DNA of 64,000 bases from Heptranchias perlo (Eukaryota): positions 3,906,001 through 3,970,000 of the forward strand of contig NC_090361.1 in the NCBI RefSeq assembly GCF_035084215.1, read 5' to 3'. This document shows, in pieces, positions 11,931 through 48,944 of this stretch. Within the stretch, counting starts at the first letter, position 1. Each line of letters begins with the position of its first letter. The translations under genes and the position numbers were made by a program. The notes under the pieces are model-generated. The model searched no databases. It was not told the DNA's origin and worked only from the letters and a program-made list of their open reading frames with translations.

Positions 11931-12580
11931 GCTAGGGAGCAGAGGGGGATAAAAAACATCAGGCAGTGTTTCCGCTCCTGGTCATTATCCAGTCACTCCT
12001 GCCGGAAAGCATGCAAGTGTGGACGTCAGGGTTGGACTTTGCAGCGACCGGCAACACTCGATCCCAACACCCAAATGAAGAACATCTATTTGGGTGGGTG
12101 AGGTATCAGAGGGTGAGGGGTGTTTGTAGAGCTTGAGTCAGTGTCTTTTAGAGAGAGCAGGGGAGAAAAACAGAGAGGACAGGGACAGAGTGTTTTATAC
12201 CCCTTCTCTGATCTGTTATAATTTAGCTGAGGTAATGATACAGTATGATCCAAGGTATGGGCTATCAAGAATATTTACTACAAGAGTGGCACTGGATGCT
12301 ACTTGCAACCCTCTTCCCCCTAAACCTGTGTCCTTCAGTGGAGTTGCTGTCTCTGGGCCTATATTCAAGTCATCTCCAGTTATGGGATGTCACCAGAGCT
12401 AAGATTCAGTGCTGTTTGCTCACCCTTTGTTGTCTAGCGAGAGGAAAAGCAAAGGAATTTGATTAGGAAGTGTGACTATCTCAACATCCTTAGATGTGGA
12501 GATGCCGGTGATGGACTGGGGTTGACAACTGTAAACAATTTTACAACACCAAGTTATAGTCCAACAATTTTATTTTTAAT

Positions 12581-12617
12581 CCCACAAGCTTTCGGAGGCT
12601 TCCCCCTTCCTCAGGTG
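12581..12617 (-). ncRNA. Minimal hammerhead ribozyme motif (SLC27A1 sense strand)
   Basis: CAC-CUGAGGA-A-GGGGG-AAG-CCUCC-GAAA-GC-UU-GUG: stem I CAC/GUG, CUGANGA core, stem II, GAAA, palindromic AGCU helix III. Confidence 0.7.
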
Positions 12618-12639
12618 AGGAAGGGGGAAGCCTCCACAC

Positions 12640-12674
12640 CACCTGAGGAAGGGGGAAGCCTCCGAAAGCTTGTG
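12640..12674 (+). ncRNA. Minimal hammerhead ribozyme motif (plus-strand mirror copy)
   Basis: Exact reverse complement of the 12583-12617 motif. Confidence 0.7.
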
Positions 12675-24614: not shown

Positions 24615-24724
24615 CGTGCAGTTGTACTTCACGCAGTCGTCCCAGAATCGGCTGGCCGAGAACTTCTTCTTGATCACAACAGTCAGGCCGTGCAGCAGGC
24701 ACTGTCCGACGCCAACTATATTAC
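24615..24724 (-). CDS. SLC27A1: FATP1 coding exon 6
   Basis: (G)[36 protein letters not shown]; 110 nt. Confidence 0.96.
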
Positions 24725-24929
24725 CTGCCGGCAGAGCAGAGAGAGAGACGCAAGGTTTAAGGATGGACCTCGCACTAGCTAAAACAAGTCAGCAGCAGAA
24801 AGACATAGTTAAGACTACAGGTGGAGTGTGATCGGCAGCCATGAGGGCACAACATGTTTGAAAGAAAGTGAAAAGCCATTTCACATTTCTCTCCCGCTGT
24901 CACTGTTTTGTGGTTGGTTCTTACCCCTT

Positions 24930-25847
24930 CAATCAAAGCCCCTCCCTATCTCAGTAACCTCCCCCAGTCCTACAACCCTCCGAGATCTCCGCTCTCCTCC
25001 AATTCTGGTCTCTTGCACATCATCTGAAAACACATCATCAGACTCCACATATACGCTGACGACACCCAGCTCGACCTGACAACCACCTCCCTCGACCCCA
25101 CTGTCTCTCATTTGTCACATTACTTATCTGACATCCAGTATTGGATAAGCAAAAATTTCCTCCAACTAAATATTGGGAAGACTGAAGCCATTGTCTTTGG
25201 TCACCGCTGCAAATACCGTTCCCCAGCCATCGAGTCCATCCCTCTCCCCGTCAGAGGCTGAATCAGACCGTTCACAACCTTGGTGTCCAGACTGGACTAT
25301 TCCAATACTCTCCTGGCTGGCCTCCCATCTTCCACCTTCCATAAACTTGAACTCATTTAAAACTCTGCTGCCTGTATCCTAACTCGCACCAAGTCCCGTT
25401 CACCCATCATCACTGTGCTCGCTGACCTACATTGGCTCCCGGTCGTGGAACACCTGAGTTTTAAAATTCTCATCCTTGTTTTCAAATCCTTCCATGGCCT
25501 CGCCCCTCCCTATCTCTGTAACCTCCTCCAGCCCTGCAACCCTCCGAGATGTCTGCGCTCCTCCAATTCTTGCCTCTTGCGCATCCCTGATTTTAATCAC
25601 TCCACCATTAGCGGCCGTGCCTTCAGCTGCCTAGGCCCTAAGCTCTGGAATTCCCTCCCTAAACCTCTCTGCCTCTCTACCTTCCTTTAAGATACTCTAA
25701 ACCTGCCTCTTTGACCAAGCTTTTGATCACCTGTCCTAATATCTCCTTATGTGGCTTGGGGTCAAATTTTGTTTGATAATCGCTCCTGTGAGGCGCCTTA
25801 GGATGTTTTATTACGTTAAAGGTGCTGTATAAATGCAAGTTGTTGTT
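24930..25847 (+). mobile_element. L2 LINE fragments (including RT YADD region and 3' end)
   Basis: CACATATACGCTGACGACACCCAGCTC (HIYADDTQL) and LADLHWLP...GRAFS..GPKLWNSLP; tail TAAATGCAAGTTGTTGTT. Confidence 0.85.
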
Positions 25848-26551
25848 CCCTCATATAGGCCAACTCATTTACCATGCCCCTCGCCACAACGAGAATTATA
25901 AGTAAATAACGTTAACACAGATTCAACGGTTCCTTAAAAAAAGCCTCTTCCCTGTGACATAATTTTTAATTAAAAATGGACATCACGAGAGGGTTGCACA
26001 AGGGCTCACTCTGATGAAACATTAGCCTTTTATCTCTTTACAGAGAACGACAGACCCGAGGATTTATACTGAGTGATATCAGCCACAATTCCTAGCAGGC
26101 AAGATGTAATCACATCCAAGGTGGCTTAAACAGGTAAGTGAAGAGCCCACAGACTGAAGCAGATTCACAGCTGCAGTGTAGCACCGGTCTATATTACAAT
26201 ATTTAATGATTTGTGATGAGTGCGTGCTCGTGGGGTAAAATTTGACATTTTGGCAGTAAAAGGGACAATATCTGGGGGTAATCTGAGGTAGCTGGTGCAA
26301 AGCCCTGTGCTACAAAAGCTTAACATCTCAACTTATTGAACAATGTACACTTGGTGAATGCATTTCAAAATATATTTCAAAGCCCTTCAGACTGAATGAC
26401 ATAAAATATAATGGAGACAAAACAGTAAGCTGGAATTTTGAAATAGAAACAGAAAATCCCGAAGTAAAGAGCCCACTGTGATTCTCCTGGCCTGTCCTAC
26501 AATTTGAGAATTTTCATACACTACTCTCTCATGCCCCTCAATGACATGAGG

Positions 26552-26700
26552 TGTCAGCCATGGCTCAGTGGGTAGCACTCTTGCCTCAGAGTCAGGAAGT
26601 TGTGGGTTCAAGTCCCACTCCGGAGACATTTTCAGTGACTATCGAGGGAGTGCTGCACTGTCGGAGGTGCCGTCTTTCGGATGAGACGTTAAACCGAGGC
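26552..26700 (+). mobile_element. DeuSINE 5' fragment
   Basis: TGGCTCAGTGG A box, GGTTCAAGTCC B box, start of Deu core. Confidence 0.75.
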
Positions 26701-27044
26701 ACAGGTTCATTGCAGGCTGACACAAGTGAGAAATTGGATCAATGGGAATGATCAATAAAAAAGGGGACTAGCTCTCCTGTCCTTAAGGTGACTTTCCTAC
26801 TTTACCTGCCTCAGCACCGAACCTTCAATTGGTGATTCCATCTGTTGGGTTGGTCAAGTTCAGAAGATAGGGGAGTGGAAGGCAGTGTGCCCATGCCCTT
26901 ACATGGTACCAAGCCGCATAGCGTACTGGAGCATTAACCCACTATGCCACCTCATTCCACAACATAACCGGCGTACTAATTCACACTGCAATGGAGACAA
27001 CTGGAAAACCGGTCTCCAGTAAGGTTAACATGACCATTAGTTAC

Positions 27045-27136
27045 CTGCTGAATGATACAGTGGCAAGCAGTCGTAAATGATGTCATCGGGCCCCATTCGG
27101 AATCCATAATAAGCAAACGCGGCCATCCTATAGTAC
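27045..27136 (-). CDS. SLC27A1: FATP1 coding exon 5
   Basis: (R)[30 protein letters not shown]; 92 nt. Confidence 0.96.
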
Positions 27137-27344
27137 CTGTAACCAATGACACCGGGTTAGTAATGAGTGGGGCAGAGGCAGAGTTTTATATCTCACAGAG
27201 CAGGTCAATCACCAGGTACCTGCAGCCCACACAACATGGCAAATACTGACACGGGAAAGTCATTAAAAAGCTTTTTAACGATTTTTACTTGAGGGGACAG
27301 GAAAGAGAGAGAGGAAGAAATTGAGCAATACTGTAGCATACCCG

Positions 27345-27625
27345 GCCTGCTAGTGACTGAGAAGCATCATCAAGCCACCCAAGACCAGAACCCTGGTCTG
27401 TGTCGAGTTAGCCAATCTCAGCCAGGCAGCAGATGGGGGGTTAAAATTGCCCTCGGCAACCCATGGGCTGATATAGGACTTCTCGCTCCTAACCACTTTC
27501 CGCCCATTGCTGCTGGGCAATGCCCAGGCGGCTCTCAAGCGAGGACAGGAATGGGCTCAGCTGTCATGCCTTCCACAGTCAAATAGTCCACCAACACTCA
27601 CTCACACATGAAGAATAGGCAGGGG
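27345..27625 (+). mobile_element. Ancient SINE (LmeSINE1/AmnSINE2-like, tentative)
   Basis: GGTCTGTGTCGAGTTAGCCAATCTCAGCC...GAGGACAGGAATGGGCTCAGCTGT...CTCACACATGAAGAAT; related copies at ~10570-10680 plus 11930-12110, ~24020-24225 and ~52440-52720. Confidence 0.5.
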
Positions 27626-28189
27626 AATGGGGTACAGGAGAGCTGCTGGCAAGTGTGGACACACACCAAGAGTTAGCAGCTTCAGGAGGGGAGAAAAATT
27701 ATTGTGGGGGTGGTGGCGGGGAGATAACGTCACCAGATACTTGTGAGAAGCACCTTGCAAATCCTGGATCCCGACCAGTGACTCTGAAATCAGAACGAGT
27801 TCTTTGGCATACATAGATGTTCTTGGTCCACAGAAGTTCTGAAGCAAATTGCTGGCATAGCTCACAGGGATTTCAGTGTGGGGGCTATACTGTATCTACT
27901 TAAAGGAAAATGTACCACCCCAAACAGCACTCGCTCTCTCTCTAGTTTATCGATTCACATAATGACGACCCTGTTCCCATCACCTCGAGCAGGTACATTC
28001 AAAGCATCACAGAACGCATGCTGTACAGCTAACACAGGCTACAGAATTTAACCTAAGTTCTGGTGTATGGGTCCCACCTTCACGTTGCCATGTACTAAAA
28101 ACCTGCACAAAGATGCAACTTGCTGTCTTGGTGATTAACGGGTTTGTACTGCGCACAGTTCTGGTCTCAGTGTTATAAAAAGGATTTAA

Positions 28190-28650: not shown

Positions 28651-28750
28651 TGTTGAAATCAGTAGCAATAGTCCCAGAGCAAAAAACGTTGAAAAGTCAG
28701 AGCAAACGCAGCCACTGCCCTCTGCTCTGCCACAAAGTTCTGGTACGTAC

Positions 28751-31425: not shown

Positions 31426-32945
31426 TTCTGTGCTGGTGCCTGTACCCCCTTGCTCATGTGAATTGGTGTTTATGGATGTGACTTGCCAGCAAAGCACATT
31501 CAGCGTGCTATAGAGCTTGATAAGCGTATCCTGCTGAGCAAACAGTCCTTCTGGGGTCTGAAGTCCGGTTGTGATGTTTAGCTTCTAACCTGGCATATTG
31601 GTTTAAGGCCACTGCTCAATTACTGGAAGTCTAGGTAATGGCAGCAGTTTGTAAATCCCTGAAGTGATTCTTCAGGAGGTCAGTTAATTGCTTGTATATT
31701 TCAGGCTCCAGGTTAGAAAAACACAGGATAAAATGCTTGGCTTACCTTCTCTTTTTTAAAGATCATTTTAAATCCATAACCAAAGCACAATGTCCGCAGT
31801 GTGACAAACCCTCGCTAGACACAAATTTCTTCCACATGGACTAGGTCGTCTGCCTTGGCACTGTCCATAATAAATTGGACGATGTGTTACTTTACATAAA
31901 TGGGGATGTTATGGACCAAGTGCGATGGGGAAAGTATTACAGGAAGTATTGTGATACTTGTGGGAGGTGCATGAAAGAACTTTAATAGATCAGCACGTTA
32001 CCCGTGCTCTTCTACTGTCCTCTCTCCTTTATTGTTAATCGTGAGATGGTGGGGAGGAGCTGTTGAGGGTGCAGGTCACATTTTCTGGTGCAGAGTGTGG
32101 GAAAATGTGCATCACACACCCACAAATTACAAGATTTATGGAACTTAATTTCACAATGTCTTATGCTGGGATTTTAACTCCTAACCTCTGGGCTGTTAGT
32201 CCAGTACCATAACCACTGGGCTACTGTATCCTATATATCTTTTAAGTTCTTTATAGCACTTACCATGGTTTTTACTAAGATAAAAGCAAAGTACCGAAAA
32301 GAACTTGAAAGCTGGTCATGGCTGGGAATGTGGCACTGGAGTGGGAAAGGCACAGGTATTTGGGGTGGGACATGAGCTCCAAGCAGGAAAATGCCACCTT
32401 GGGGCACAGGCTGAGGAGCGGGAGAGGCAGAGGATGGAACGGAGATAAGTCCATCCTTTAGAGGCCCCGGGTGGTTGGGGCCATGGGGCTCGGACTGAAT
32501 CAGAGGTCAGTTTAGGGTGTGTGTCCCTTTAATGCTATAAAGTCTAATGATTGTTAAGTAAAACTAGATAAGTTCATTCAAAGTTTAGCTGCTATTTACA
32601 GTGGAAATCAAAAGCTCAGTTTTGTTTGTGGGAAAGTCAATTAAGAGCCTCCACACAGTGTGGCTGCTGCAGTGTGTGTTCCTGGGGGGTGTTTTGGTAA
32701 ATTGGAGTAGTTACCTTTGTTTCTTTATACTTTTTTTAAAAAAGCGTGACAGAGAAATCTGCATTAGATATTGTGAAATTTCTAAAGTGTGGGGGTCAGT
32801 AAGTACGTACATATGTATAGATATACACACAAAAAATTCTTTTTTCAAATATACAGAACACTTGTTCTGAGAGTATCTGCAGAAGTAGAACCATCAAAAA
32901 ACAGAATGCTCGAGCAAACAGCAAGGGGCACCCAGTGCCAGCAAA

Positions 32946-33256
32946 ACCTCCGCGATCTCTGCGCTCCTCCAATTCTGGCCTCTTGCGCATCTCCGATTTT
33001 CACTGCCCCCACGACTGACGGCCGCGCCTTCAGCTGCCTAGGACCTAAGTTCTGGAATTCCCTCCCTAAATTTCCCTGCCTCTCTCTCCTCCTTTAAGAC
33101 GCTCCTTAAAATCTACCTCTTTAATCAAGCTTTTGTTCACCTGTCCCAATATCTCCTCATGTGGCTCAGTGTCAAATTTTGTCTGATAATCGCTCCTGTG
33201 AAGCGCCTTGGGCCGTTTTACTACATTAAAAGGCGCTGTATAAATGCAAGTTGTTG
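32946..33256 (+). mobile_element. L2 3' fragment
   Basis: Same L2 3' consensus and tail. Confidence 0.8.
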
Positions 33257-33919
33257 CAATATGGAAATTACTTTCCTTCCACAAGTTCACACAGGACTTC
33301 TGCCTCACAGCACAGCTACCATGGCACTGTATGTGAGACAAGCTGGATTAAAAGAAAAAAAAGGAAGAGGTTTCTCTTTATATTTAAAAGAGACAAGTAA
33401 ATAACATGTGCTACTCAATTCATAACAGATAGTTTTTAAAGTTACAGAAAACATAGTTATTACTTTGAACTTATTTTTACTCTAGAAATAACATAAGTCA
33501 CACAACCTAATATAGAACAGTCTATTGGTATATTTGGACTGTAAACATACTAGGCATCTAAAGTGAGCATAAAAAATGAAAGTCATTCAATGCTGTCAGT
33601 AAAATTTCAGTGACGTGTAATAGTGGGCATATGAAATGTTCACACAATGTCCACATGAACTGTGAAGAACACCCAGCTGTACAATTACAGATTTTGTTCT
33701 TCCAAACTGAGGTTGTGTCTGGGGGGAGAGCATTTCAACCTGTGTAATACCGGGGTGAAGAAATGGTGGTTATAGTTCTGTCACTGGTAGTTGGAGCAAT
33801 TTAAGGGGATGAATTAAGAGCATCAGACAAGAAACATATTGAGACATTGAAGCGTACTTGTTTAACAGAGTTATAGAACAAAAGTACATGAAAACGGGGG
33901 GAGCTGGACGGATATTTTT

Positions 33920-34442
33920 TGGTCTCTTATCTAAGGAAGGATATATTTGCCTTGGAGCCAATGCAACGAAGGTTCACTAGATTGATTTCTGGGATGGGAG
34001 GGTTGTCCTATGAGGAGATTGAGTAGAATGGGCCTATGTTCTCTGGAGTTTAGAAGAATGAGAGGTGATCTCATTGAAACATAAGATTCTGAGGGGGCTT
34101 GACAGGGTAGATGCTGAGAGGCTGTTTCCCCTGGCTGGACAGTCTAGAACTAGGGGGTGTAGTCTCAGTATAAGGGGTCGGCCATTTAAGACTGAAATAA
34201 GGAGGAATTTCTTCACTCAGGTTTTTAATCTTTGGAATTCTCTACCCCAGAGGGCTGTGGATGCTCAGTCGTTGAGTATATTCAAGGCTGAGATCGATAG
34301 ATTTTTGGACTCTAGGGGAACAAAGGGATGGGAGATCAGGCGGGAAAGTGGAGTTGAGGTCGAAGATCAGCCATGATATTATCGAATGGCGGAGCAGGCT
34401 CGAAGGGCCATATGGCCTTCTCCTTCTCCTGTTTCTTATATG
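33920..34442 (+). mobile_element. CR1 LINE 3' fragment
   Basis: KILRGLDRVDAERLFPL...RRNFFTQ..WNSLPQRAV...FKAEIDRFL; tail GGCCATATGGCCT...TTTCTTATATG. Confidence 0.85.
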
Positions 34443-35430
34443 ACCCGTGTTATAACAAGGCCTATGAATGCATCCATTCCACCCCTAATGCCAAAGCCAC
34501 AAATTTGCCCATCTCCTAACCTCTCCCTTTACTCCCTTAGTGATCATGTTAAATTGATGACCCCCCTCGTCACTAACTCCCCAACCAGATGAAATAGCCT
34601 TTCCCCATTCAGCTATCAAAACTCTTCACCATTCTTAAAAACCTGTTCTGAATCTCCCCTCAGCCTTCTCTGCTCCAGTGGAAATAGCCCCAGTATCTCA
34701 AGTCTCTCCTCACAATTATAGCTGCTCAATCCTGGCCTCACAAGCAGTTGTTTGCATTCAGCAGCACAACACAATGACCACGCTGTACTGGAATGGCACA
34801 GGAATGCATTCATTGGGCCCAGCAATACGTTACTCACAATTGCACTGGTCTATTTTAAAAGGTACTAGCCTCCAGATAGAGGGCTGGTTTTCACTGAGCC
34901 CCAAATCCAGTCAATGCCATTACTTTTAACTTGCTGTTGCAATAGAAATAATGCAAATCACACAATATGGTATTAAGACGACAGTATGTACAAATCTGGG
35001 CTGTAAACATGGAAACGTCTGATCTGAGCTTAAAAAAGGAAAGTTACTCATTACTATCATTAGGATTTCAGTGAAATATAATCATAGAATCAGAGCAGTT
35101 ACAGCACAGGAGGCCTTTAGCCCATCGTCCTTTTGCAGGTGCCAGCTCTTCAAAGGGAGCAATCTACTCCAATCTCATCTCATCTCATCTCCCTTCTCCT
35201 TACCCTACATCCTTTTCAAATTCCTTTTAAATGAAAGTTTTGTCTCTGCCACAAATGCCACTTACAGCAAAGCATTCCATGTTCTAATAATCGTTTGTGT
35301 GCACACATTTCTTCTGATTTCCCCCACGTCTTTCCAGTGAGGGTTGATAACCCTCACACACCCCCATGTTGACTTGAGGAGCAGCAGGGGGGGGGGGGGG
35401 GGGAGAAAGGGGGAACTGCAGAAACAGTTG

Positions 35431-35558
35431 TTCACCTGAGGAAGGAGGAAGCCTCCGAAAGCTTGTGAATTTAAAATAAAATTGCTGGACTATAACTTGG
35501 TGTTGTAAAATTGTTTATAATTGTCAACCCCAGTCCATCACCAGCATCTCCACATCAT
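35431..35558 (+). mobile_element. Penelope-like terminal fragment (family A) beginning with an intact hammerhead (35431-35469)
   Basis: UUCAC-CUGAGGA-A-GGAGG-AAG-CCUCC-GAAA-GC-UU-GUGAA, then AATAAAATTGCTGGACTATAAC...CATCTCCACATCAT. Confidence 0.78.
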
Positions 35559-37831
35559 ACCTAGTCAATTCAAGCATGGGTCAGGACGGTACATATACAC
35601 AAAGAAATAGTGAGTAGAGATTTCAACACATGCAAGACAGTGCTGGGCAGTTCCAGGTGTGAAAACACACACTAGTGTGCAAGGTATCACCATTGAGATC
35701 CTCACTCATGTACAAGTAAGTTAGTGATGAACAGATCCAGACATATACACAACGACACTGGTACATAAGCCCTTTCTCACACATGCAAAACAATGCTGTT
35801 TTTCAGACTCTCATTCACACGAGACACATTCAAAGAGGCCCCATTCAGATCTATACACACACACACACAGGATAATGCCATTCAGCTCCTGTTCTATAAA
35901 AGATCAGTGCTGTAGCTTTGTAATAAATGAAACAGTCTCTTGTTAACTGGCCAATTAACATATGAATCAACCGAATAGCATCAGAGTGACATTAATACAC
36001 TGAATACTAGTACAGTGTCTCATAAGGGGAGACTTGCACACTTGTAGGTTTAACGTGCTCAAGGATTTTACTGACCATTGTGACCAGTTATCCAATGATA
36101 AATTAAGATGAATTACTGGAGCATCACTGGGGTGTAATTTTCCAGTTATAGATAAACTAAACATATTAGTATTGGCGACTAGGCTTTACAGTAAACTTGT
36201 ACAGTAAAAACATTACACCCCCAAGAAAATTTACAAATACTGTTGGTCTGTTTTTTTGCTGAACACAGGCTAGCTTTGTTCACAGGGAGATTGTGGTATG
36301 AGGAACTTCAGTCCCCCGATATCAGCTACATACCAAAGGACCTCTTATCTGCACCAACATCTCAGTACATGACAACTACTAAAGGCCTCTCCCACTTGCA
36401 GCAAATACTGCTGAAGGCAGGAATACATCAGGTCAGCGGTAAATCGTCACTGGCATCAGAGTATAAGCTGCAGCCTCGGTACATAGGTCGTTACAGTCTA
36501 TTGTGAAGATGCAAGTGATGCACCTAATTTTATGGTGGTAACTGGATAGGATTTGGAAATCCCAAACTATTTTCAATCTACAGTTGCTAGTGTACAGATT
36601 GTATATTTTTAAATGTGGCTTAACTCGTGGGTTTAAGTTCTTGTAGCAGACATCTGAAGGAGGGTGTAGCGTAACTCTGATGAGTCCACTGGGCTAAAAT
36701 AGTATAATTGGGAGGTCAATGACGCAGATGGATTTTAATACAACGATTTCTATTAAAGGATAGAACGGAGATAGCGATATGCACTATAATACTGTTAATC
36801 TATAGATGTAAGAATTTGTATAAAAATCTACTACTATTTTACAAGGCGGAGGAGTGGGAATCATTGGATAGCTCTTTCAAAGAGCCAGCACAGGCACAAT
36901 GGGCCGAATGGCCTTCTCCTGTGCTGTACTTACTATGAAACTACTGTGATTCTGCTTGGTGTGTGTTTTTTCTAAAATAAATATTAGGATTTCATCATTC
37001 ATGGAGCAGTGGTACTGGTGTTAAAAACGAGGGTATTTATTAAACCAAACTCCTGATAGTCTGGGAGTTTTTATTGACTTATTTCTGGTCATGGGGAAGG
37101 TGGGTGTACTGTACTTAAACTTCAGAATTCAACAACCAAGGACATTTTGTAGATTCACTGAAGGTAATGAGCAGCAATAGGCAGTTGGGAGCCAAAGTAA
37201 GCAAAGAAATGTTCCCTTTCAATGTCTCAGCCTCAGAAAGGTGAAGCTGGGTAAATAAATTAGGGAATACGGAATAGAAGGATATGCTGATAGGGTGAGA
37301 TGAGGCTTGTGTGATGCATAAACACTGGCATGGACCAGCTGGGCCAAATGGCCTGTTTCTGTGCTGTAAATTCTATGCAAATGCCACGGAGATGAAAGCC
37401 CTGATCAGCCTTTATACCAGTGGGAGGGGAGTGAATGCTTTCACATGAATACTTGAGTACATGGTTGTTGTAGGACCTTATCATGCAGTATTTAATGTAT
37501 ATATTGGGTTTGTGGGAATAGACACTGACTCGAGATCAGTTCTGCTCAGTCCACAATATGAGCAGAGAAATGCCAATATTTTTCAGCAGTAGAGGATAAA
37601 GGAGATGGGAAGATAGATTCACACCAAGGTGGTCCCTGAGCCTCCTGGGGGCTAACTTCCAGGGGGAAATAACAGTTGGTTAGATGCGGGCCAGGTAACC
37701 ACCCTCTCTAATGTAGGCAACAGGCCATGTGAATCACAATACAATATAAATGGGGTAAGGTACCCAAATACCCACTCAAAAATGTCAGTATTTACATTCG
37801 AGAAATAATGCTGCATTAAAATAATCATTAC

Positions 37832-37993
37832 CCATGAATCCTATTGCCTGAGGAGGAGAGGGGGCAAACTTGGATGCTGCGTTGAGCAGAGGATCGAGGT
37901 GTTCTGTGCCAGCTGGAACTTTACTTGGATCCCAGCTCCCACTGCAGAACTTCCGAACATTTTTCCCTAGGATTCCATTCACTTCTAACAGGG
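37832..37993 (-). CDS. SLC27A1: FATP1 coding exon 3
   Basis: (A)LLEVNGILGKNVRKFCSGSWDPSKVPAGTEHLDPLLNAASKFAPSPPQAIGFM; 162 nt, phase 1/1. Confidence 0.93.
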
Positions 37994-39064
37994 CTGGAAT
38001 ACAAACACATGCATAAAACGATCAGGTTCAGCTCCACCAGCGCCAGTCAGCACTTCTACAAGATGCAGGTATGTTAAGTTTAACGCTTTGTCGTCGCTAT
38101 ACTTTATAAATAACTTTTAAGCTGCCGTGACATTCTGCGATAGGACAGGTCCGAGAGAGATTAAAAAATACTGCGTATACAGAAATAGTGTGTGTCTGGA
38201 AACACAAGAAAAGTTGTCATCTTTTATAAAAATGCATGTATGAAGATCAAACTTCAAAGATTTGTGCCAGCATTCATAGAATACAGCTCAAGAGGCCATT
38301 CAGCCCATTATGTCTGTGCCAGCTCTTTGAAAGAGCTATCCAATTAGTCCCACTCCCCTGCTCTTTCCCTATACTTCTGCATATTTTTCCCTTTCAAGCA
38401 TATATCCAGTTCTCTTTTGAAAAGTTACTGTTAAATCACACAAAGGAGAGTGAAAATCTGGAACTCTCTCCCCAAGAAGCTGTTGAGGCTGGGGGTCAAT
38501 TGAAAATTTCAAAACCGAGTTTGATAGATTTTTGTTAGGCAAGGATATGAAAGGTTATGGAATCAAGGCAGGTAAATGGAGTTAAGATACAGATCAGCCA
38601 TGATCTAAATGAATGGCAGAACAGGCTCGAGGGGCTGAATGGGCTACTCCTGCTCCTATCTGCTTCCACTACCCTTTCAGCATTCAGAAGATCCTAGGCT
38701 GAACTAACAATCCCTACACGTTGACAGTTTTCGATGTATATATTTTAGTATACTGAGTGGTCTTATTTCTCATAAGACAAGGCCTGAAAATGTCTATGTG
38801 CTTTCTATAAAGCTCTCTCTCCTCCTAAGTCCTTTCAATGGAAGAGGAGAGAGCCCTACAGACAGCAGCACACACAGATATTAAGTTGGACGATTAGGCC
38901 TGGACTTTCCTTCTGGGTGGAGCTGGACGGTCAGGACTGAACTTTCACCCCCTTGACCCCAATCCACTTTCTGGGTCAAGGCTTGTTAAATGTGCGGGGC
39001 AGGCTCCCAATGGGATCGCGGCACAGAGAAGCAGCTCACCATTAGAAATATTTGCCGGTGCACT

Positions 39065-39422
39065 CCAGGCCGACACTTCTAGTGCAGTACTGAGGGAGTG
39101 CTGCACTGTCAGAGTGCCGTCTTTCGGATCAGACATTAAGACGAAGCCCCATCTGCCCTCTCAGTTGGACATGATAAAGCCCATGGCACTATTTGAAAGG
39201 AGTTTTCCCATGGCCAATATTTATCCATCAACCAACATTCACTAAAACCTGATTAACTGGTTATTTATCTCATTGCTGTTTGCTATGCATGAATTGGCTA
39301 CATAATAAAGCATTTGCCTGGATAACAGTGACTGTACCTTAAAAAAAAATAATTCATTGTCTGGGAAGCACTTGGTGCCGTCCCAACAATGTGAAAGGCT
39401 CTGGAAATACAGGTTCTTTCTT
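39065..39422 (+). mobile_element. DeuSINE copy (degenerate)
   Basis: Deu core; ends just beside the exon 2 donor. Confidence 0.7.
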
Positions 39423-39436
39423 TTTAACTGACTCAC

Positions 39437-39831
39437 CGTCACTCATCTCAGCTCCAAAGATAATAGCTTTGGCTCCTGACACAGACAGGCAGTGAGTGAG
39501 TGAGTCCAGACGAAGATTGAAGTTAAGCAGGGCAGCCTCCACACCGATCTTTGCCATCCCGAGCCACAGGCCAACGAACTCTGGCCTGCTCTCCATAAAC
39601 AATGCAATGACCTCGCCCGGCTGATAGCCCTGCTCATGCAGGAGGTTGCCCACTGCATTGGAGTACTCGTCGAGTTGCCGGAAGGTCCACCTTTCGTCGA
39701 CTCCTTCGTAAATGAAGGCAACTTTATCTGGGTGTCTCCTCACCGTCTCTTGAAAGATCTTCGGGATAGTGCTGTCTTCCCGCTGATGTTTTCTCACAGC
39801 TAACTTAACCCGCAGCAGCAATAACAGGCCG
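39437..39831 (-). CDS. SLC27A1: FATP1 coding exon 2
   Basis: GLLLLLRVK...TIPKIF...[15 protein letters not shown]...[26 protein letters not shown]...IIFGAEMSD; 395 nt. Confidence 0.97.
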
Positions 39832-40334
39832 CTGCCAAGGAAAGAAAAATCGCAAGACATTAATTTAGTTCTGATTTCATTCTCCTCAGAACTCGTGAAA
39901 TCACAGCGCGATACAAAGAAACGAGAGAGGTGCTCAAATCAGAAACATGATCTGCAGTTTTAACATGATGAGAATTCCCTGAAAGATAACCCTGGTTTTT
40001 GATGCAAATCTGTCACTGACACGTTATAAAGGGACACTTTAGGCATAAATCTCACTGGGACGCTCTTCTTTTTCCCTGCGTCCTCATTCTGCTGAGATCA
40101 AAATCATATCATTGCCCCATGCCAATTAATTCTTTCTTAATCTCTCAAAACGGTGGAATTCCTTACCTCCTTTAGTCTTCCCTTCTTTCTGCAATTTGAG
40201 AGTTTTAAAGCCCAAGTGTGGTGTGTCACCTAATCAGTGAGTAGGTATACTGAGCCATACAAACCAGGAAGATCCTAGGTCCTACTCCCAGTCTGAGACC
40301 ATTACTTAAGAATTGGGGTATGCCATTCAGCTCC

Positions 40335-40705
40335 TCGAGCCTGCTCTGCCATTAAGTTAGATCATGGCTGATCTGCACCTCAACTCCATATCCCTTGATA
40401 CCCTTACCCAACAAAAATCTATCCATCACAGTTCCAATTGTTCCAGCATCCACAGCCTTTGGTGGTGGGGAGGGGGTGGGAGGTGAATAGAGATTTCTAC
40501 TATTTGTAGCTTGTGTGGAAAAGGGCTTCCTGATTTCACTCCTCAATGGCCTGGCTTTAATTTTAAGATTATATCCCCTTGTCCTTGATTGCCCCACCAG
40601 AGGAAGTCGTTCCTTTGTATCTACCCTGTCAAATCCATTTAACATTTTAAAGCCCTCGATCAGATCACCCCCCTGATCTTCTATACACGAGGGAATACAA
40701 GCCAA
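40335..40705 (-). mobile_element. CR1 LINE 3' fragment
   Basis: GDLIEGFKMLNGFDRVD...SRTRG..LKIKARP remnant. Confidence 0.75.
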
Positions 40706-41319
40706 GTTCTTCTTGGTGTATTCCATCCTTCCTACTCTTTGAACCTCGGTCCTGCACTGAAGCCTCGGCCCTTGTTAATGAAAAAAGGTTTCTTCCGTGC
40801 TTCCTGCAAGGCAAAGATAAGGCTAGAACTCACCACAAGCTGCTCTAACAATTTGAAACAATGTTATGAGTGAAGTTGATTTGAGTGCTGCTGGCACAAG
40901 ATTGACTGGTGATTCGCCAGGGCTATATGCGTAGGGCTGCTCTCAAACCCACTGCTTGGCTCCCGACAATAAGGCTCTCATTTCAAAAGCCTTTTTTGGA
41001 GGATGCACAGCCGAGTGAACTTCTGCTGACATGAACTCACGTAACCTTTAGTTGGAACCCGTACGCTTATTACAAAAGGTCAGTAAGAATATTAATTTTT
41101 AAAAGTTGTTTTCTACTCATGAGCTTTGTTTGGAAAGCTGCCATTGACCAGACTAGACTTTTAATTACGTTTTCACTTTGTTTTTCTACAAGGTCCTTCC
41201 AATGCCTGGCTGCTGAACTTACTGTGAACAAACCCTTCCAAAGACCGACCTATCTAACCTCCGTCTAGCATAGATTTAAATGCAAGTTGTTATGTTGTCC
41301 CAGTTAGAAGAAATGCTTC

Positions 41320-41812
41320 AGCAACAACTTGCATTTAGAATAGCACCTTTAGCATAGGAAAACATCCCAAGGCAATTCATAGGAGCATTATCAGACAAAA
41401 ATTGACATGAGCCAAAGGAGATATTAGGACGGGTGATTGAAAGCTCAGTCAAAGAAGTATGCTTTAAGGAGGGTCTCAAAGGAGGAGACATGGAGAGGCG
41501 GAGTCGTTTAGGGAGGGAATTCCAGAGCTTAGGGACTAGATGGCTGAAGGCACTGCTGCCAATGGAGGGGCCAAAGGGTGTTGGGGATGTGCAAAAGGCC
41601 AAAGCTGGAACTACAACTTACATTTATAAAGCACCTTTAACATAGTAAAATGTCCCAAGGAGGGTTGTAGGACTGGAATAGGGAGGGGCGGGTCCATGGA
41701 GGGATTTGAACACAAGGATGAGAAAGTTAAATTTGAGGCATTAGTGGACCAGGAGCTAATGTAATGCGAGCCCGGGGTGATGGGTGAGCGGGACTTGGTG
41801 CAGGTTAGGACT
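41320..41812 (-). mobile_element. L2 3' fragments
   Basis: AFSHLVPKLWNSLP and L2 tail; compound structure. Confidence 0.7.
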
Positions 41813-42159
41813 AACTACAATGGTAAAAGGACCTTTCAAAAAGTTTTAAGTTGGGTGGATGATAAAACCACGGTGTAGAAAAGTGCAGAGGGACGACTTT
41901 AACCCGAGACATTATATTAAGTGGTTCGGATTGTGAGACAGCAACACCTGTGCAGCGGCCCCCACGTTTACATTATTAAAACCAGCTGCCTTACCCCGAA
42001 GCAGAGTACTTAAGTTTTACAATTTTCTTTCCTTGTAGGTTGGAGGTAAAAATTGATGCAAATCATGGCTTTCTACTCCTGATTTTGGGGAGCATTTTTG
42101 AAGTGAATAATGGAGCCTTGGTGCTCTAATCAGTAGAGACATTGCCCAGCTCAGGATGA

Positions 42160-42503
42160 CACTTCGATGCAGTACTGAGGCAGTGCTACATTGTCAAAGG
42201 CTACCTCGTCCAGACAAGACCTTAACCAAGGCTCCGTCTCCCTGTTCAGGTGGACATGAAAGATCCAAGGGTACCATCCGAAGATGATCAGTGAGTTTTC
42301 TGTGTCCTGGCCACCATTCCTCTTTCAACCAGCATCACCAAATCCAGATTAATTGGTCACTCATTTCACTTGTTGTTTGTGGGACCTTGTTGTGCAACAA
42401 TTGGTTACCGTGTTACACGTCAACAGCAGCTGATTGGATATGAAGCATTCTGAGACATCCTGAGGATGTGACAAGGTGCTATATAAATGCAAGCTCTTTC
42501 TTT
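42160..42503 (+). mobile_element. DeuSINE copy (diverged)
   Basis: Deu core and GCTATATAAATGCAAG tail. Confidence 0.65.
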
Positions 42504-44373
42504 ACTCTCAATTACGAAGGAAACAGTCAAGAAACTGATGCTTCAGAGGAACCGTTCATAGGGCCATTAGAGTTTGACTTGAGTCATTAGGTAGCTTTCT
42601 GCAGCTGCATTAGGCAGTCGCAGGTGGAACTTTTTCCAGCGCGAAAACATGCAGACTCTGAGGTCATTCCTACAGAACGAGACCGCAGGCAACTTTGTAA
42701 ACTGTCGAGGAGAAAGCAAATAAAGAATTCTAAAATGTAAATGTCAGCACAATGTGGGCTTTGGGCTGAACTGACAAGAGTCTGACCCAGAAGCAGCGTA
42801 ATGTGCCCACGTTATCAGATAAACATATGCACATCAATACAGTACACAAGAGGCACAGAGGAGGAGGGAAGTGGAGCCAACCTACATTTGATTTGGACAC
42901 GTTTAAAAGCAGTAACGTCAGCAGAATTCGGGCAGTTTAGCTTTTGCTGAGTTTGACACCAAGCCAAGAAAGATATTAGGAGGGGTGACTAAAAGCTTTG
43001 TCAAAGAGATAGGTTTTAAGGAGCGTCTTAAAAGGAGGAGAGAGAGGCGGAGAGGTTTAGGGAGGGAATTCCAGAGCTTAGGGCCTAGACGGCTGAAGGC
43101 ACGGTTGCCATGGGTGGAGCGAAGGGTGTGGGGGATGTGAGGCCAGAGTTGGAGGAGTACAGCGCTCTCGGAGGGTTATAAGACTTGATGGTGGCGAAAC
43201 ATCGCATAATTAACTGCAATATATCATAAACCTGTCAAGCATTCTAATCCAAGAGAAAATGTAATCATTCGATCAACATGAACTTCAATAAAGTAGTGAA
43301 GAACGTGCACTCCTGATAAGAGGAATTAGTCTTCAATTGGTGTCGCTGTTGTTTTTTTTGAAGAGATAACCGCCCTGTACCAAATATTTGGTATTTTTGA
43401 TCAGAACTGAGTTAACAACAATGAACAAAATGTTCCTTTTAAAGAAATGCTACAGGATCAATAGGGAAGGATTCGACCCACAGCAAGGGGCCCATTAAAA
43501 TGACAGCTCTGCACAGTGGCGGAGGGTCTATAAGCCACGGTGAGTTGCAGGACAGGAGATAGGCCAAAGAAATAATCAAAAGTTGAATCAAACTCTTGGG
43601 ATCAGATAGCTGGCCAGTGTTTAAGTTTAAGTTAAGCACATGCACGGGACCAGTAACCCCATCTTGAGTTTTTTTTAAAAAATAAGTTAACCCTTATCCA
43701 CTCCAAACTGGTTAAAAAGTAACTATCAAATTTAGATAACTCCCCAATGGAATTAAGTAAAGGATTTCTACAGCATAGGAGTTAGAAGCTGAAATTTGCT
43801 TTCCAAATATTTAGTATTGAACACCGTATCAGGGTTGGAACATGGTCTTTTCGCTGGGTTTGAATCCAGCCAAAAACCGATACAATGAAAATCTCTTCTC
43901 TCCAATAGCTGATTTCATTTAGCCCCCTTAGTTTGGACAATCTGAAAGCTAATCCTGGCAGTCACAAACCCAAGGTGGAAAAAGTTCCTTATAATTTGAC
44001 ACTGATCTAGGAATCATAAATCAGATAGACCATGAAAACAGCTGATGAGGAAAACATAAAATGTCACACCACCATTAGGAAAAGGAAAAGAAAAAATCTG
44101 CAGGGCTATGGGGAAAGAGCTGGGGGGGGTGGGGGTAGCTCTCTCAGATGCTGTATGATTCGATGATTATATTAGAGGAACTGGGAGAGGGGGGACCACT
44201 AACTAGGGAACAAAGTAAACGTGACAGAACAAATAAAAACCAGTTCTGGGAATGGACACCCAACTAAAGTGTTTTGTCAAGAAAAATAGGAGGATATTCA
44301 GTACTTCCAGACACTAACACAGAAAGGTACACACAACACACACCCCTCAATAAAATCACACAGTGCAACTTAC

Positions 44374-44540
44374 AAGATATCTCTAGGGGCAGTTTTTAAG
44401 ACTATTCGAATAAACCTCCATCCCCCACTTCCTAGATAAACGCCAAAGCTCGCAGCAATACTCCAGGTCCAGGAAATCCCAAAGAGTTGCATCAATCCCA
44501 GAGATCCCAGGGATGCACTGCAACTGGCCACACTGTGCAT
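44374..44540 (-). CDS. SLC27A1: FATP1 coding exon 1 (exon begins at acceptor 44556)
   Basis: MHSVASCSASLGSLGLMQLFGISWTWSIAASFGVYLGSGGWRFIRIVLKTAPRDI(F); 167 nt, phase-2 GTAAGT donor matching exon 2. The WTWS...GVY.GSGGWRF.RIV pattern favours FATP1 over FATP4. Confidence 0.95.
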
Positions 44541-47500
44541 CTTGTATAGAGACTGTCTGTTAAAAAAAAAAGTTTGACATAAATAACAGTGGTACTGTAC
44601 AACAGAGACAGCAGTTACATTTCCATGAAAAGCCTTGATTACGCTTTGATACTGTTAAATGTTAGAGTTACTGTTAGAGTTAACCGCCACTCGGTTATCA
44701 GAGTAGTTACTAGTTAACCAGGTTAACGTTAGGGTTACCAGCTCGATGATCATTGGAAATAATTGACACTCAACAAGTCTGGAAATAGGACAACAGGCCA
44801 GAGTGTCCATCTTGTATAAAGTACCCGAGACAAACAGGTTCAGAAATCAACAGCGTACACTCCTGAGAGAAGCCGTTTCGAAGAAGAGCAGGTGAATTCT
44901 CCCCGGAGTGCTGGCCAATATTTATCCCTCAACCAACATCACTAAAACAGATTATCTGGTGATTGTGTCACATTACTGTCTGTGGGACCTTGTTGTGCGA
45001 AAATTGGATGCCGCGTTTCCTTTGGCTGTAAAGCGCTTTGGGATGTCCCGCGATCGTGAAAGGCGCTATATAAATGCAAGACTTTCTTTCTTTCTCTCCC
45101 ACTCTGCACCAACTAAAGAAGTGGATCATGGCAACTGAGCACATTAGTGTTTAACATCACTAAGCACTCTGTTTGGAGAAGGTCATCCTGGCTGATTAGG
45201 GATCGCATTCCTGCTGGTGAACAACAAAGTTCTGAACATTACGTATCTTATAGAAAACCTCAGCAACTCCAGAATCAGAAAGCAACCCATGTTTCCGCTT
45301 TCACTACATCAATTTACATTATTTAGAAAGAATCTTGAACAGCAGATCATATAACCCGATAAAACGGTGAGTGTGGGCTTACACCACTGACCAGTTACAA
45401 CAGGGAGTTCAGGAACAGAAAGGGGGAGCACTGCACCTTACTTAGCTCTTATATTTGGAGATGGGGGGGGCGGGTGGGAGAAGGAGATACTTGTATATAT
45501 CCAAAACCGTTCTCCAGTTAACAAGTCCGTCAAAGATGCTGGTGAGGGATGTGAGAAGAGAAGAAACAGCCCTACAACAAAGCACAGAGAAACCCGTTGG
45601 GTTTATTTAACTCATCGATATCAACAGGCATAGAGGCAAATTACCCATTTAACCAATACGCTGCAAATTGTGGTGACGTACGGTTAGAATGTTAGAGCTT
45701 CAAAAATTATCCTTTTTTTTTTAAGTTCGCCAAGAAATTTTTAGTTCTCTGATAGTTGGAAGTTTCATCCGTATCAAAGTATTCCTACTAATACTATCAA
45801 CACCAGTGGCAATACTTCACCCTAGTGTTACACAGCTCAAAACGCTTTACTGCTGCCCGAGTGACAATACTGATGTCATTAAAGGGGCTCTTATAACTTC
45901 TCTGGTTACCGAACCTCCTACCAGGGAGAAACTGTTTCTCCCTATCTATCTACTCTATCAAAACCCTTCATAATTTTGAACACCTATGACTATGATACTA
46001 TAAATTTACAAGGCTATGGAGAAAGAGCAGGCTAGTGGGACTAATTGGATAGCTCTTTCAAAGTGCCGGCATAGGCACAATGGGCCAAATGGCCTCCTTC
46101 TGTGCTGTAATTGACTATGACTATGATACCTCTATCAAATCTCAGCATTAACCTTCTCTTCTCTAAGGAGAACAATCCCAGCTTCTCGAGTCTCGCCACA
46201 ACTGAAACCCCTTATCCCAGGTACCATTAAGCAGCTTAATTGTGTTAGACTCCCAATGTCACAATTTGTTTTCCATTTTTACCATATGTTGAGAAGCAGG
46301 CAAATGTTCAGCCTTCTGGTCAGTTTCCACCCACTCAGTTTGGATCTTTTTGGCACCATTCAGTCTCCTGATCTAACGAGCACCAATCAAAAAAACCCCC
46401 GACAGACCTGATGGATGAAGCTGTACAGCGCACCATTCTGCATCAAGCAACACACACGCACAAAAATAAATCACTCGAGGAATAAAATGCCCCATTGTTT
46501 CAGCTCTTGGGGCTGTCTTCTTTTGAAATGTAACAGTTTGCATTTCACGGATTGAAATGAGAGGTGAATCCTGTTTGTCTTAAAGAAGAATTCCAGGAGA
46601 AATCTCTGGATTTGACATTGTGTCATTAAGTGTAATGACAGCAGTTATATTTCTGTCATCACTATATATTTAAATTGAGCATCAACAATGCCAGACAATG
46701 AACAACAATAAACATACATCAAATACAGCTCTTCATTCTGAAATGCATCTTTGAAGTTTTCAAGTGACACACTATTTTAACAAGAGATGAGAAAGCGGAG
46801 GATCTACCAACTCACCAGAAACATCAATTCTGTAACAGCGTGCAAAGAATTCATTCACCCCTATACCATCCAAACTGCGAACTAAATGATTTTTCCGGAA
46901 GCAATTTCTTTTAACGGTCTGTTGGCACTGCCTGGCAAAACTGGGGGCAGTTCAGAGTGAAAACACGAATATCTCACCTCCCTTTTGCACACAGCGACTT
47001 TGCTGTTTTGATCTGTTTCGCTCGACACAAAGACATGTCATTGTGGTTCTGCGAAGCAGCTCGCAGGCAGCGTTCCAGTGGGGCTCTGTTCCAATTTCAA
47101 ACAAGTGTTTAACTCACTGGATGTCTCTCAGCAAAGCACAGACAAACTGCTCTGCTAGGACTCATTCACAGGGATGTACTTGGGCCGAAAACGGAAAGCA
47201 CAAATCGAGTCCAAATGGGTCCTATCACCACACTTTAAAATGATCTGCTTTCAAAGCTGAGCTGTGTAGTATCCCAACAGCCCTCCCCGAGCTGACTGCC
47301 CTCCTTGTGCTAATGGACTGCTCAGTATGCCTATGAAACTGATCTCGGAAACACAGTTCCAGTTGTATGTTAAATAATACGCAGAAGGAATGAGTGACAA
47401 AGCAACGCATCAAAAGGTTCAGACTAACACAAGAGCAAAGCTCAAGGGATTTGTCAATTGAACCAGGGGATGAGATTACGACGAATATAAAATCGCTCCC

Positions 47501-48061
47501 ATGCACTATTCTTTTGTGAATTTTGAGCTGATCAAGGTGAGCAATGTTAGTGCTGGGGAATGGGATGTTTTTAGTTCCAGGAATCTGGCGTAAGCATGAA
47601 GCACTCCCAGTAAAGTACAACACTGTACGATACAGAAACTAGCAACAAATAAGAAATCTCAGCCCCAATCAGAAGAGCACCCCTTATGGCAGCAGTTAGT
47701 CCATGTTCCATACCTGTAAAACTTATTGCCTCTCTAAACAAGATCACCATTTTGTGCTGAATTACAGGCAGTTTTGCGCTGTGAACCATTCCCATGGGTA
47801 ACTACACACGGGGACTGCCCAAACTCATCAGGTGGCACCTTTACACCCAGCACAAAGGACACTTTCATCTCATCAATCCATACTGGACTTGAGCCCACTC
47901 CCCACACTATTGCAACTAGATAGCATGAGGACATCAAATGTTACGGTTTATAAATAGATCCACACACTATTAGGTCAAAGGAAGTTTGAAGGACACTGCA
48001 ATAGTGAAATAATGTGCTTCGTTTTGCCTACTTTAACTTGTGAAATAAGGGAGACCATGGA

Positions 48062-48944
48062 TAAAGGTGAAGATCTTTTTTCAGAACTGGAAAATGTTAA
48101 AGAGTTAAAGTTTTTGAGCAAGTACAGAGCCAGGGAGTAGGGAGGGGAGGGGACGAAAGAGCAAAAGGGAAGTTCTGTGATAGGGTGGAGGGCACGAGTG
48201 ATTAAATGACAAAAGGGATGATGATGTAAGGCAAGGAAGGTGGTAATGGGACAGGTTAAAAAACAAAAGATTGCTCAGGAGTAGCAGCAACAGCAGAACC
48301 TTTACCAGCATTTGCTGACACAAAATACTCACCTGACGAAGGAGAAAGCCTCCGAAAGCTTGTGATTTTCAAATAAAACTGTTGGACTATAACCTGGTGT
48401 TGTAAGATTCCTTACATTTGTCCACCCCAGTCCATCACCGGCATCTCCACATCACAAAAAATGGAAGCAGTGGTTATGATCTGAAGTGGAACAGCATCTC
48501 ATCTTTCGTTTAGGCACTTTACAACCTTCCGAACTCAACACTGATTTCAATAACTTCAGATCATAACCACTGCTCCCATTTTTTTGGTCAGCTAGTGTTG
48601 GTAATGGTTCTGCTGCTACTCCTGAGCAATCTTTTGTTTCTTAACCTGTCCCATTACCACCTTCCTTGCCTTACATCATCATCCCTTTTGTCATTTAATC
48701 ACTCGTGCCCTCTACCCTATCACAGAACGTCCCTTTTGCTCTTTCCTCTCCTCCCTACTCCCTGGCTCTGTACTTGCTCAAAAACTTTAACTCTTAACAT
48801 CTTTCAGTTCTGACGAAAGGTCTTCGACCTGAAACGTTACCTCTGTTTCTTTCTCCACAGATGCTGCCTCACTTGCTGAGCTTCTCCGGCATTTTCTGTT
48901 TTTATTTCAGATTTCCAGCATCCACAGTATTTTGCTTTTGATTT
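48062..48944 (+). mobile_element. 5'-truncated Penelope-like retroelement (family B) with upstream inverted terminal copy
   Basis: 48489-48566 encodes EQHLIFRLGTLQPSELNTDFNNFRS*, resembling the GIY-YIG endonuclease C-terminus of PLEs; ~48080-48487 is an inverted copy of 48553-48813; hammerhead at 48806-48842. Confidence 0.85.
48329..48454 (+). mobile_element. Family A Penelope-like fragment with hammerhead (48329-48365), nested in the family B element
   Basis: UCAC-CUGACGA-A-GGAG-AAAGC-CUCC-GAAA-GC-UU-GUGA; flanked by CACAAAA on both sides. Confidence 0.78.

What the first reader, a model, noticed from the sequence alone, without database searches (positions are those of the whole stretch)
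12493..48944. Two Penelope-like families scatter minimal hammerhead ribozymes through the SLC27A1 locus
Seen: six motifs of the form stemI-CUGANGA-A-stemII-GAAA-NN-UU-stemI'. Family A is at 12581(-), 12640(+), 35431(+) and 48329(+) with an AAGCTT palindrome; family B is at 16905(+) and 48806(+) with an AACGTT palindrome. The two families have different helix sequences but the same core and pairing, which is covariation-like support. Family B is tied to a GIY-YIG C-terminal remnant (EQHLIFRLGTLQP..LN..F). Established: Penelope-like elements carry minimal type I hammerheads thought to cleave as dimers through a palindromic helix III. Inference: self-cleaving RNA motifs occur at high density in and near a host metabolic gene, so the genome may hold very many.
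Basis: partly seen in the sequence, partly recalled or inferred. Interest (0 to 1): 0.7.

Follow-up and report, generated by a model that had tools for sequence, protein, structure and literature searches.

The report
Penelope retroelement stubs carrying hammerhead motifs
The six self-cutting RNA motifs are real but are leftover ends of two Penelope-like jumping genes, a known pairing with about 95,000 such motifs in this genome; five face away from the fatty-acid transporter gene and the sixth is predicted to be locked in a hairpin, so they likely do not cut its RNA.

Summary
All six hammerhead cores are present (0 in 200 shuffles). One has a broken stem I, and there is a seventh, core-mutated copy. 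Both families are pseudo-LTR (pLTR) stubs of Neptune/Nematis-type Penelope-like elements. I found RT+GIY-YIG parents for each, with an unbroken 891-aa ORF for family A. A core-only pattern matches 95,458 times genome-wide (229 reversed), so the window is about 3-fold above average. Family A stems covary modestly across subfamilies, but inserted cores decay as fast as neighbouring sequence. Host cleavage is unlikely: five motifs are antisense to the SLC27A gene, close pairs are head-to-head rather than tandem, and the one intact sense motif lies in a perfect 88-bp hairpin. Spliced RNA contigs place that hairpin in the likely 3' UTR. Stub 5' ends pile up just upstream of the hammerhead (A 39 of 93, B 23 of 80), partly about 30 nt after a TATA-like box, and none falls exactly at the cut site. 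The stubs were therefore likely copied from uncut leader RNA. The scan noted this pattern before, in this genome and in others. Verdict: new members of a known kind.

The parts
12495..12730 (.). Family A head-to-head pLTR pair: 88-bp perfect inverted repeat (12530-12617 / 12640-12727, 22-nt loop); only the left arm carries the tail; flanked by a 9-bp target-site duplication at 12486 and 12731
   Evidence: (I19)
12581..12619 (-). Family A minimal hammerhead (C3 at 12614; stem I 5 bp, stem II 5 bp, AGCU helix III, predicted CUU cut). The only intact motif in the host mRNA sense; predicted to be fully paired in the hairpin
   Evidence: P(stem II first pair) about 4e-23 in context
12638..12676 (+). 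Family A minimal hammerhead (C3 at 12643; stem I CCAC/GUGG 4 bp), antisense to the host gene
11891..14494 (-). Last coding exon (14494 to stop near 14339) and likely long 3' UTR of the SLC27A gene; RNA-like contigs cover both sides of the hairpin, none bridges it
   Evidence: (X3 record 24 spans 12702-14494; loose end at 14494 matches the upstream exon; 11891-12520 covered in 4 of 4 runs, one sample)
16674..16988 (.). Family B head-to-head pLTR pair (130-nt arms, 85% complementary), 10-bp target-site duplication at 16664 and 16989; in an intron about 30 nt upstream of the acceptor of the penultimate coding exon (16644-16498, minus strand)
   Evidence: (I11)
16904..16942 (+). Family B minimal hammerhead (C3 at 16909; stem I 4 bp, stem II 5 bp, ACGU, predicted GUU cut), antisense to the host gene
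16784..16822 (-).
35432..35557 (+). Solo family A stub (126 bp): hammerhead (C3 at 35436), AATAAA and tail ending at the parent's ATG; intronic, antisense to the host gene
48065..48940 (.). Family B insertion: inverted 5' arm (48065-48487, interrupted), then the forward GIY-YIG C-terminus, 3' UTR, hammerhead and tail
   Evidence: (I6)
48326..48453 (+). Family A stub (C3 at 48333, stem II 4 bp) nested in the family B inverted arm with a 6-bp duplication; so this A copy is younger than this B copy
48483..48563 (+). C-terminal remnant of the family B GIY-YIG ORF
48805..48843 (+). Family B hammerhead (C3 at 48810), core intact but stem I only 1 bp; upstream of the first coding exon, antisense to the host gene
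14339..44540 (-). Coding exons of an SLC27A/FATP gene (first coding exon 44540-44373, last 14494-14339)
   Evidence: AMP-binding, E 8e-24; best PDB hit FATP2, E 3e-19

Best explanation
These motifs are short end-pieces (pLTR stubs) of two Penelope-like retrotransposon families whose RT+GIY-YIG parents lie elsewhere in the genome; the stubs were likely reverse-transcribed from the uncut 5' leader of the element's RNA and are likely inert passengers in the host gene. Steps: (1, shown) in intact family A copies the hammerhead lies about 90 nt upstream of the ORF's ATG inside each direct pLTR. (2, inferred) A TATA-like box 33-47 nt upstream of C3 starts transcription just before stem I. (3, inferred from the Anolis PAc work) the element's RT primes internally at two sites about 37 nt apart near the ATG and runs off the RNA 5' end, giving 90-130-bp stubs, often as head-to-head pairs with a target-site duplication. 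(4, shown) subfamily sequences keep the core and stems while inserted copies decay at background rates, so (inferred) selection acts on the parents' ribozyme, not on these copies. (5, predicted) no copy here can form the dimer in cis on the host RNA. The most likely effect on the host is the 88-bp double-stranded hairpin in the 3' UTR, not cleavage.
For: Parents: L051 and L056 have direct pLTRs about 3.03 kb apart around the ORF; L079 has an unbroken 891-aa ORF with RVT_1 (E 7.5e-11), a C-x-x-C linker and a GIY-YIG-type C-terminus; L068 has an upstream family B pLTR, a frameshifted ORF and a partial 3' pLTR; 3 of 4 family B ORFs give weak GIY-YIG hits (E 0.007-0.02, below cut-off); A and B proteins are 29% identical. 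Genome counts: A core pattern 39,152; B 2,337; A downstream 23-mer 98,955; B 21-mer 10,726; all four controls 0; general core 95,458 vs 229. Copies were sampled by a motif downstream of the ribozyme. 5' ends: A 39 of 93 within -20..0 of C3 vs 3 and 3 in equal flanks; B 23 of 80 within -8..+1 vs 6 and 3. Within 2 nt of the predicted cut: A 4 of 93, B 3 of 80, none exact. Peaks follow the TATA-like box in two A subfamilies (5 ends at -17 for TATA at -46; 4 ends at -10 for TATA at -40); 19 of 34 short B copies end at TATA+27..33. 3' ends fall in two clusters (45 and 45 of 93), the second at the ATG. Neighbours within 500 bp: 17 of 20 head-to-head, 2 of 20 same strand. Decay: A non-CpG core 7/750 vs tail control 3/1175, G12 (CpG) changed in 5 of 75; B core 18/517 vs control 72/1407, P 0.14. 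PAc primes internally at two sites, and its unprocessed RNA is the main insertion substrate (PMC11167929, parts 1-2 of 4 read).
Against: No transcription start was measured; the TATA-like boxes were picked by eye. Only 16 of 44 short A copies end at TATA+28..32, and two groups (TATA at -39 and -47) are spread out. Bins were chosen after seeing the data, pair members are not independent, and samples come from the first 4 Mb (A) and first 22 Mb (B) of one contig. 7 of 93 A copies end at +27..+36, so a minority may come from cleaved RNA. D. virilis Penelope is reported to use a TATA-less internal promoter (PMC2377424, passages). 63 of 93 sampled A copies still have an intact core and stems, so many could cut if paired in trans or helped by the element's protein. 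The RNA evidence is contigs from one sample, with no contig bridging the hairpin.
Confidence: 0.8

Rival explanations
1. Some inserted hammerheads are active on host RNA. The sense copy in the SLC27A 3' UTR, or copies pairing in trans among tens of thousands of transcribed stubs, cut the transcript and shorten or destabilise it.
For: 63 of 93 sampled A copies have intact cores and stems. Family A sequence is abundant in RNA-like contigs. The PAc ribozyme cuts when the element's protein is added (PMC11167929).
Against: Five of six motifs are antisense to the gene. The sense one has P(stem II) about 4e-23 within the hairpin. Contigs continue on the 3' side of the hairpin. Cores are not protected from decay. 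Minimal hammerheads showed no monomer activity and low dimer activity in vitro (PMC4209133, parts 1-2 of 4 read).
Confidence: 0.06
2. The stubs are ordinary, randomly 5'-truncated retrotransposition products. The pile-up upstream of the hammerhead reflects a structural pause, a template-switch hotspot or microhomology, not the RNA's 5' end.
For: Many ends spread over 20 nt and lie in fold-back junctions; 40 of 93 A copies extend further upstream than -20.
Against: A hairpin would be expected to stall RT on its 3' side (inside or after the motif), where few ends lie (3 of 93 in +1..+22). Peaks shift with TATA spacing between two subfamilies.
Confidence: 0.12
3. Family A stubs are a self-propagating non-autonomous retrozyme or SINE family rather than truncation products of the full element.
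For: Stubs are highly uniform (98-99% identical) and very numerous. Animal retrozymes are proposed to derive from pLTRs (bioRxiv 10.64898/2026.07.22.740005, passages).
Against: Stubs lack the upstream TATA-like box, are not in tandem arrays, have variable 5' ends and share subfamily variants with long copies.
Confidence: 0.02

Closest known systems
Minimal hammerheads (min-HHR) in pLTRs of metazoan Penelope-like elements (Cervera and de la Pena 2014, PMC4209133; parts 1-2 of 4 read)
   Same: Type I, no loop 3, palindromic 15.2-16.2, one extra base after A9, short helix I, located in pLTRs, mostly single or opposite-strand copies; reported in fish Xena/Poseidon/Neptune, coelacanth (about 4,000) and Xenopus (about 9,000).
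   Different: About 95,000 core matches here (different descriptor, so not strictly comparable). Stem II is 5 bp. Family B opens stem II with A-U rather than the usual G10.1-C11.1. The predicted cut follows U (CUU or GUU).
Neptune/Nematis clades of endonuclease-positive PLEs (Craig et al. 2021, PMC8557442; 12 passages read)
   Same: RT followed by a cysteine linker and C-terminal GIY-YIG; direct pLTRs; inverted 5'-truncated copy; 30-40-bp tail on one end only.
   Different: Clade not resolved by a tree here. The families are only 29% identical to each other. No Repbase comparison was possible.
Poseidon element PAc of Anolis carolinensis (Frangieh et al. 2024, PMC11167929; parts 1-2 of 4 read)
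   Same: Two 3'-end classes about 37 nt apart matching two internal priming sites; uncut RNA as the apparent template.
   Different: In PAc the ATG lies within the hammerhead and priming is 111-118 nt inside the ORF; in family A the hammerhead is wholly upstream of the ATG and the tail ends at the ATG.

Membership tests
Minimal type I hammerhead of PLEs | Core CUGANGA ... GAAA ... UH | tested here: met
   6 of 6 named copies; the seventh has C3U. In 82 sampled A copies position 7 varies between G (52) and C (28) while other core changes are rare.
Minimal type I hammerhead of PLEs | Helices I and II can form | tested here: met
   5 of 6 have stem I of 4-6 bp and stem II of 4-5 bp; 48810 fails stem I (1 bp).
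Minimal type I hammerhead of PLEs | Palindromic helix III for dimer formation | tested here: met
   AGCU or ACGU in 7 of 7. The cofold minimum-energy dimers were stem-swapped forms, not the helix III dimer.
Minimal type I hammerhead of PLEs | Covariation in helices across family copies | tested here: inconclusive
   38 A haplotypes: 91.1% of cells paired (0/500 shuffles), 15 two-sided cells (4/500), but 4 pairs with two-sided change (207/500); slid controls 31-53% paired; relatedness not corrected. Family B not run.
Minimal type I hammerhead of PLEs | Self-cleavage as a dimer or with protein help | not testable with these tools
   Needs a bench assay.
Endonuclease-positive Penelope-like element | Single ORF with RT and C-terminal GIY-YIG | tested here: met
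   A: 891-aa ORF in L079, RVT_1 E 7.5e-11; no Pfam GIY-YIG hit, but its C-terminus aligns with the B endonuclease region. B: RVT_1 and GIY-YIG hits weak (E 0.005-0.02) in broken ORFs.
Endonuclease-positive Penelope-like element | Direct pLTRs with the hammerhead, inverted truncated copies, optional tail | tested here: met
   L051, L055, L056 (A) and L068 (B, 3' pLTR cut short before its hammerhead); 17 of 20 close neighbours head-to-head; two 3'-end classes.
Neptune/Nematis clade | CX2-5CxxC linker before GIY-YIG | tested here: met
   Seen in the translations of both families; definition from PMC8557442.
Neptune/Nematis clade | RT phylogenetic placement | not tested
   No reference PLE proteins were at hand.
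Non-LTR retrozymes | Head-to-tail tandem arrays of hammerhead-bearing units | tested here: not met
   2 of 20 close neighbours are on the same strand; no arrays in the window.

The most novel reading that the evidence does not exclude
About 95,000 hammerhead stubs record a run-off product: the Penelope RT primes near the ATG and copies an uncut, TATA-driven leader whose first 35-50 nt are the ribozyme. Head-to-head pairs of these stubs seed host transcripts with perfect dsRNA hairpins, such as the 88-bp one in this fatty-acid transporter's 3' UTR, which could be edited or diced and tune the mRNA.
Probability: 0.35. Interest if true: 0.5.

Novelty: new member of a known kind. Interest (0 to 1): 0.25.

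Why it matters
The ribozyme-transposon pairing is published. What this genome adds is scale (about ten times the vertebrate counts in PMC4209133, with a different descriptor) and a natural record of insertion ends. That record makes the open question of what the PLE hammerhead does testable: most copied RNA appears uncut. Family A has intact, young copies suited to in vitro work. The 3' UTR hairpin is a concrete site to test for editing or mRNA effects. Searches for 'hammerhead ribozyme' + 'cartilaginous' (3 unrelated papers) and 'shark' + 'Penelope' + 'genome' + 'transposable' (19 listings; one opened later for passages) showed no title or abstract describing these families; subscription papers and Repbase were not searched.

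Tried and rejected
Rfam scan: no hammerhead model hit; the miRNA hits at 12585-12672 only reflect the hairpin. RNA cofolding did not recover the helix III dimer and monomer folds of family B preferred another hairpin; the energy model ignores the catalytic core, so this is not used as evidence on activity. Run search: no RNA holder listed on record; four runs were guessed RNA, one sample, contigs only, so starts, ends, strand, levels and editing could not be read. Six single-base differences in 11660-14800 all lie outside the hairpin and may be alleles. No target-site duplication was evident for the 35.4-kb stub or the 48-kb B insertion. The protein atlas gave no answer, so the paralogue name stays inferred. 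Lunse et al. on dimer cleavage was not held; it is known here only through a review (PMC6765202, passages). Locus-specific enrichment was considered and rejected as weak. Rows dropped: family A 100 listed, 98 recovered, 93 after collapsing duplicates; family B 82 of the 100 listed fetched and recovered, 80 after collapsing. Covariation used 36 distinct sampled haplotypes plus 2 window copies. Supplements of the cited papers were not opened and may list shark motifs.
Full report
Observation. C3 lies at 12614(-), 12643(+), 35436(+), 48333(+) for family A and at 16909(+), 48810(+) for family B. A descriptor with core, stem II and palindrome finds 6 in the window and none in 200 shuffles. Five have both helices; 48810 has only 1 bp of stem I. 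A seventh, family B copy at 16817(-) has C3U. Rfam has no matching model at E <= 5.

Anatomy. The motifs sit in five insertions. At 12.5-12.7 kb two A stubs form a perfect 88-bp inverted repeat with a 9-bp target-site duplication. At 16.7-17.0 kb two B stubs form a hairpin with a 10-bp duplication. At 35.4 kb there is a solo 126-bp A stub. At 48.1-48.9 kb a B insertion has an inverted arm, the GIY-YIG C-terminus, a 3' UTR and the hammerhead, and an A stub is nested in its inverted arm with a 6-bp duplication.

Parents. Family A: L051 and L056 have direct pLTRs about 3.03 kb apart. The tail ends at the ORF's ATG, and L079 has an unbroken 891-aa ORF with RVT_1. Family B: L068 has an upstream pLTR, a frameshifted RT-GIY-YIG ORF and a partial 3' pLTR; the window remnant matches L071 at 21 of 25 residues. 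Both carry the cysteine linker that PMC8557442 assigns to Neptune and Nematis. They are 29% identical. No tree was built.

Abundance. In 3.25 Gb the A core pattern matches 39,152 times, the B pattern 2,337 times, downstream motifs 98,955 and 10,726 times, and a family-free core pattern 95,458 times against 229 for the reversed control. The window's 6 compares with 1.9 expected, a modest excess in a window picked after the fact. Earlier scan notes call this genome a shark; I did not test that.

Is the ribozyme conserved? I sampled copies by a motif downstream of the ribozyme: 93 A copies (100 listed, 98 recovered, duplicates collapsed) and 80 B copies. 63 of 93 A and 13 of 80 B copies have an intact core and stems. 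Across 38 A haplotypes 91% of helix cells pair, with G-C/G-U/A-U and A-U/G-U/G-C series in stem II and U-A to C-G in stem I. Three of five measures beat nearly all shuffles, the count of two-sided pairs (207/500) and of pair types (474/500) do not, and relatedness is uncorrected. Copy-level changes hit the core as often as nearby sequence (A 7/750 vs 3/1175, G12 lost in 5 of 75; B 18/517 vs 72/1407). Inference: the ribozyme is maintained in the parent lineages and decays freely once inserted.

Relation to the host gene. The gene is an SLC27A/FATP member on the minus strand, coding from 44540 to 14339. A PGLS-like exon near 3.1 kb and recalled human synteny favour SLC27A1. Five motifs are antisense. 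The 48-kb copies lie upstream of the first coding exon; 35.4 and 16.9 kb are intronic. Contigs from four runs of one sample, guessed to be RNA, include a join of the last exon to the previous exon, one contig running from the last exon into the right arm of the 12.6-kb hairpin, and contigs on its far side. The hairpin therefore likely lies in a long 3' UTR, though no contig bridges it. Folded in mRNA sense, the hammerhead helices have negligible probability. Of 20 neighbouring A copies within 500 bp, 17 are head-to-head and 2 on the same strand, so cis dimers are rare. PMC4209133 found no monomer and low dimer activity for this class. Host cleavage is unlikely; A-to-I editing of the hairpin is plausible, since lizard Penelope and palindromic repeats are heavily edited (PMC5625713, passages), but untested.

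How the stubs arise. 5' ends cluster just upstream of C3 (A 39 of 93 in 21 nt vs 3 and 3 in flanks; B 23 of 80 in 10 nt vs 6 and 3). None falls exactly at the cut site, and 4 of 93 and 3 of 80 lie within 2 nt of it. In two A subfamilies and in B the peak is about 30 nt after a TATA-like box; in two other A groups it is diffuse, and only 16 of 44 short A copies fit TATA+28..32. 3' ends form two classes about 37 nt apart, the second at the ATG. This fits internal priming on uncut RNA as shown for Anolis PAc (PMC11167929), followed by run-off at the transcript start. The start site is inferred, and D. virilis Penelope has a TATA-less promoter (PMC2377424). The lead to look at promoter-relative ends came from earlier scan notes; I tested it on my own sample.

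Verdict. Real, but ordinary: new members of a known class of PLE hammerheads with no sign of a special role at this gene. The residual interest is the scale, the end statistics pointing to uncut templates, and one young hairpin in a likely 3' UTR.

Noticed in passing
window 51790-51878: Inverted pair of ACTACA..TCCC motifs in a GC-rich stretch (57% GC), resembling ZNF143-type promoter elements (name recalled); likely the promoter of the SLC27A gene, with a non-coding first exon.
   Followed up: no
window 2954-3298 (-): First exon of a 6-phosphogluconolactonase (PGLS)-like gene (Pfam Glucosamine_iso, E 7e-16), next to a 36-bp minisatellite at about 1850-3050.
   Followed up: partly
window 54727-57700 (-): Long CR1/L2-type LINE with a 682-aa endonuclease-RT frame (Pfam RVT_1 and Exo_endo_phos).
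   Followed up: partly
window 50821-51467: 41-bp GC-rich minisatellite (13 copies listed) just downstream of the putative promoter.
   Followed up: no
window 59212-60183 (+): 324-aa open frame with no Pfam hit.
   Followed up: no
window 16674-16700: The family B insertion ends about 30 nt upstream of a host splice acceptor; its pyrimidine-rich tail contains a TTTCAG acceptor-like site in host sense. One contig covers intronic 16130-16526 in run X2.
   Followed up: no
L066, L073, L077, L078, L079: Family A pLTR tails are often fused in frame or head-to-head to LINE or second family A ORFs; several loci hold two long opposed ORFs sharing one junction.
   Followed up: no
window 17217-17239 (+): CTGATGAGTC...GAAA hammerhead-like core without convincing stems or palindrome; it did not pass the descriptor.
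   Followed up: partly
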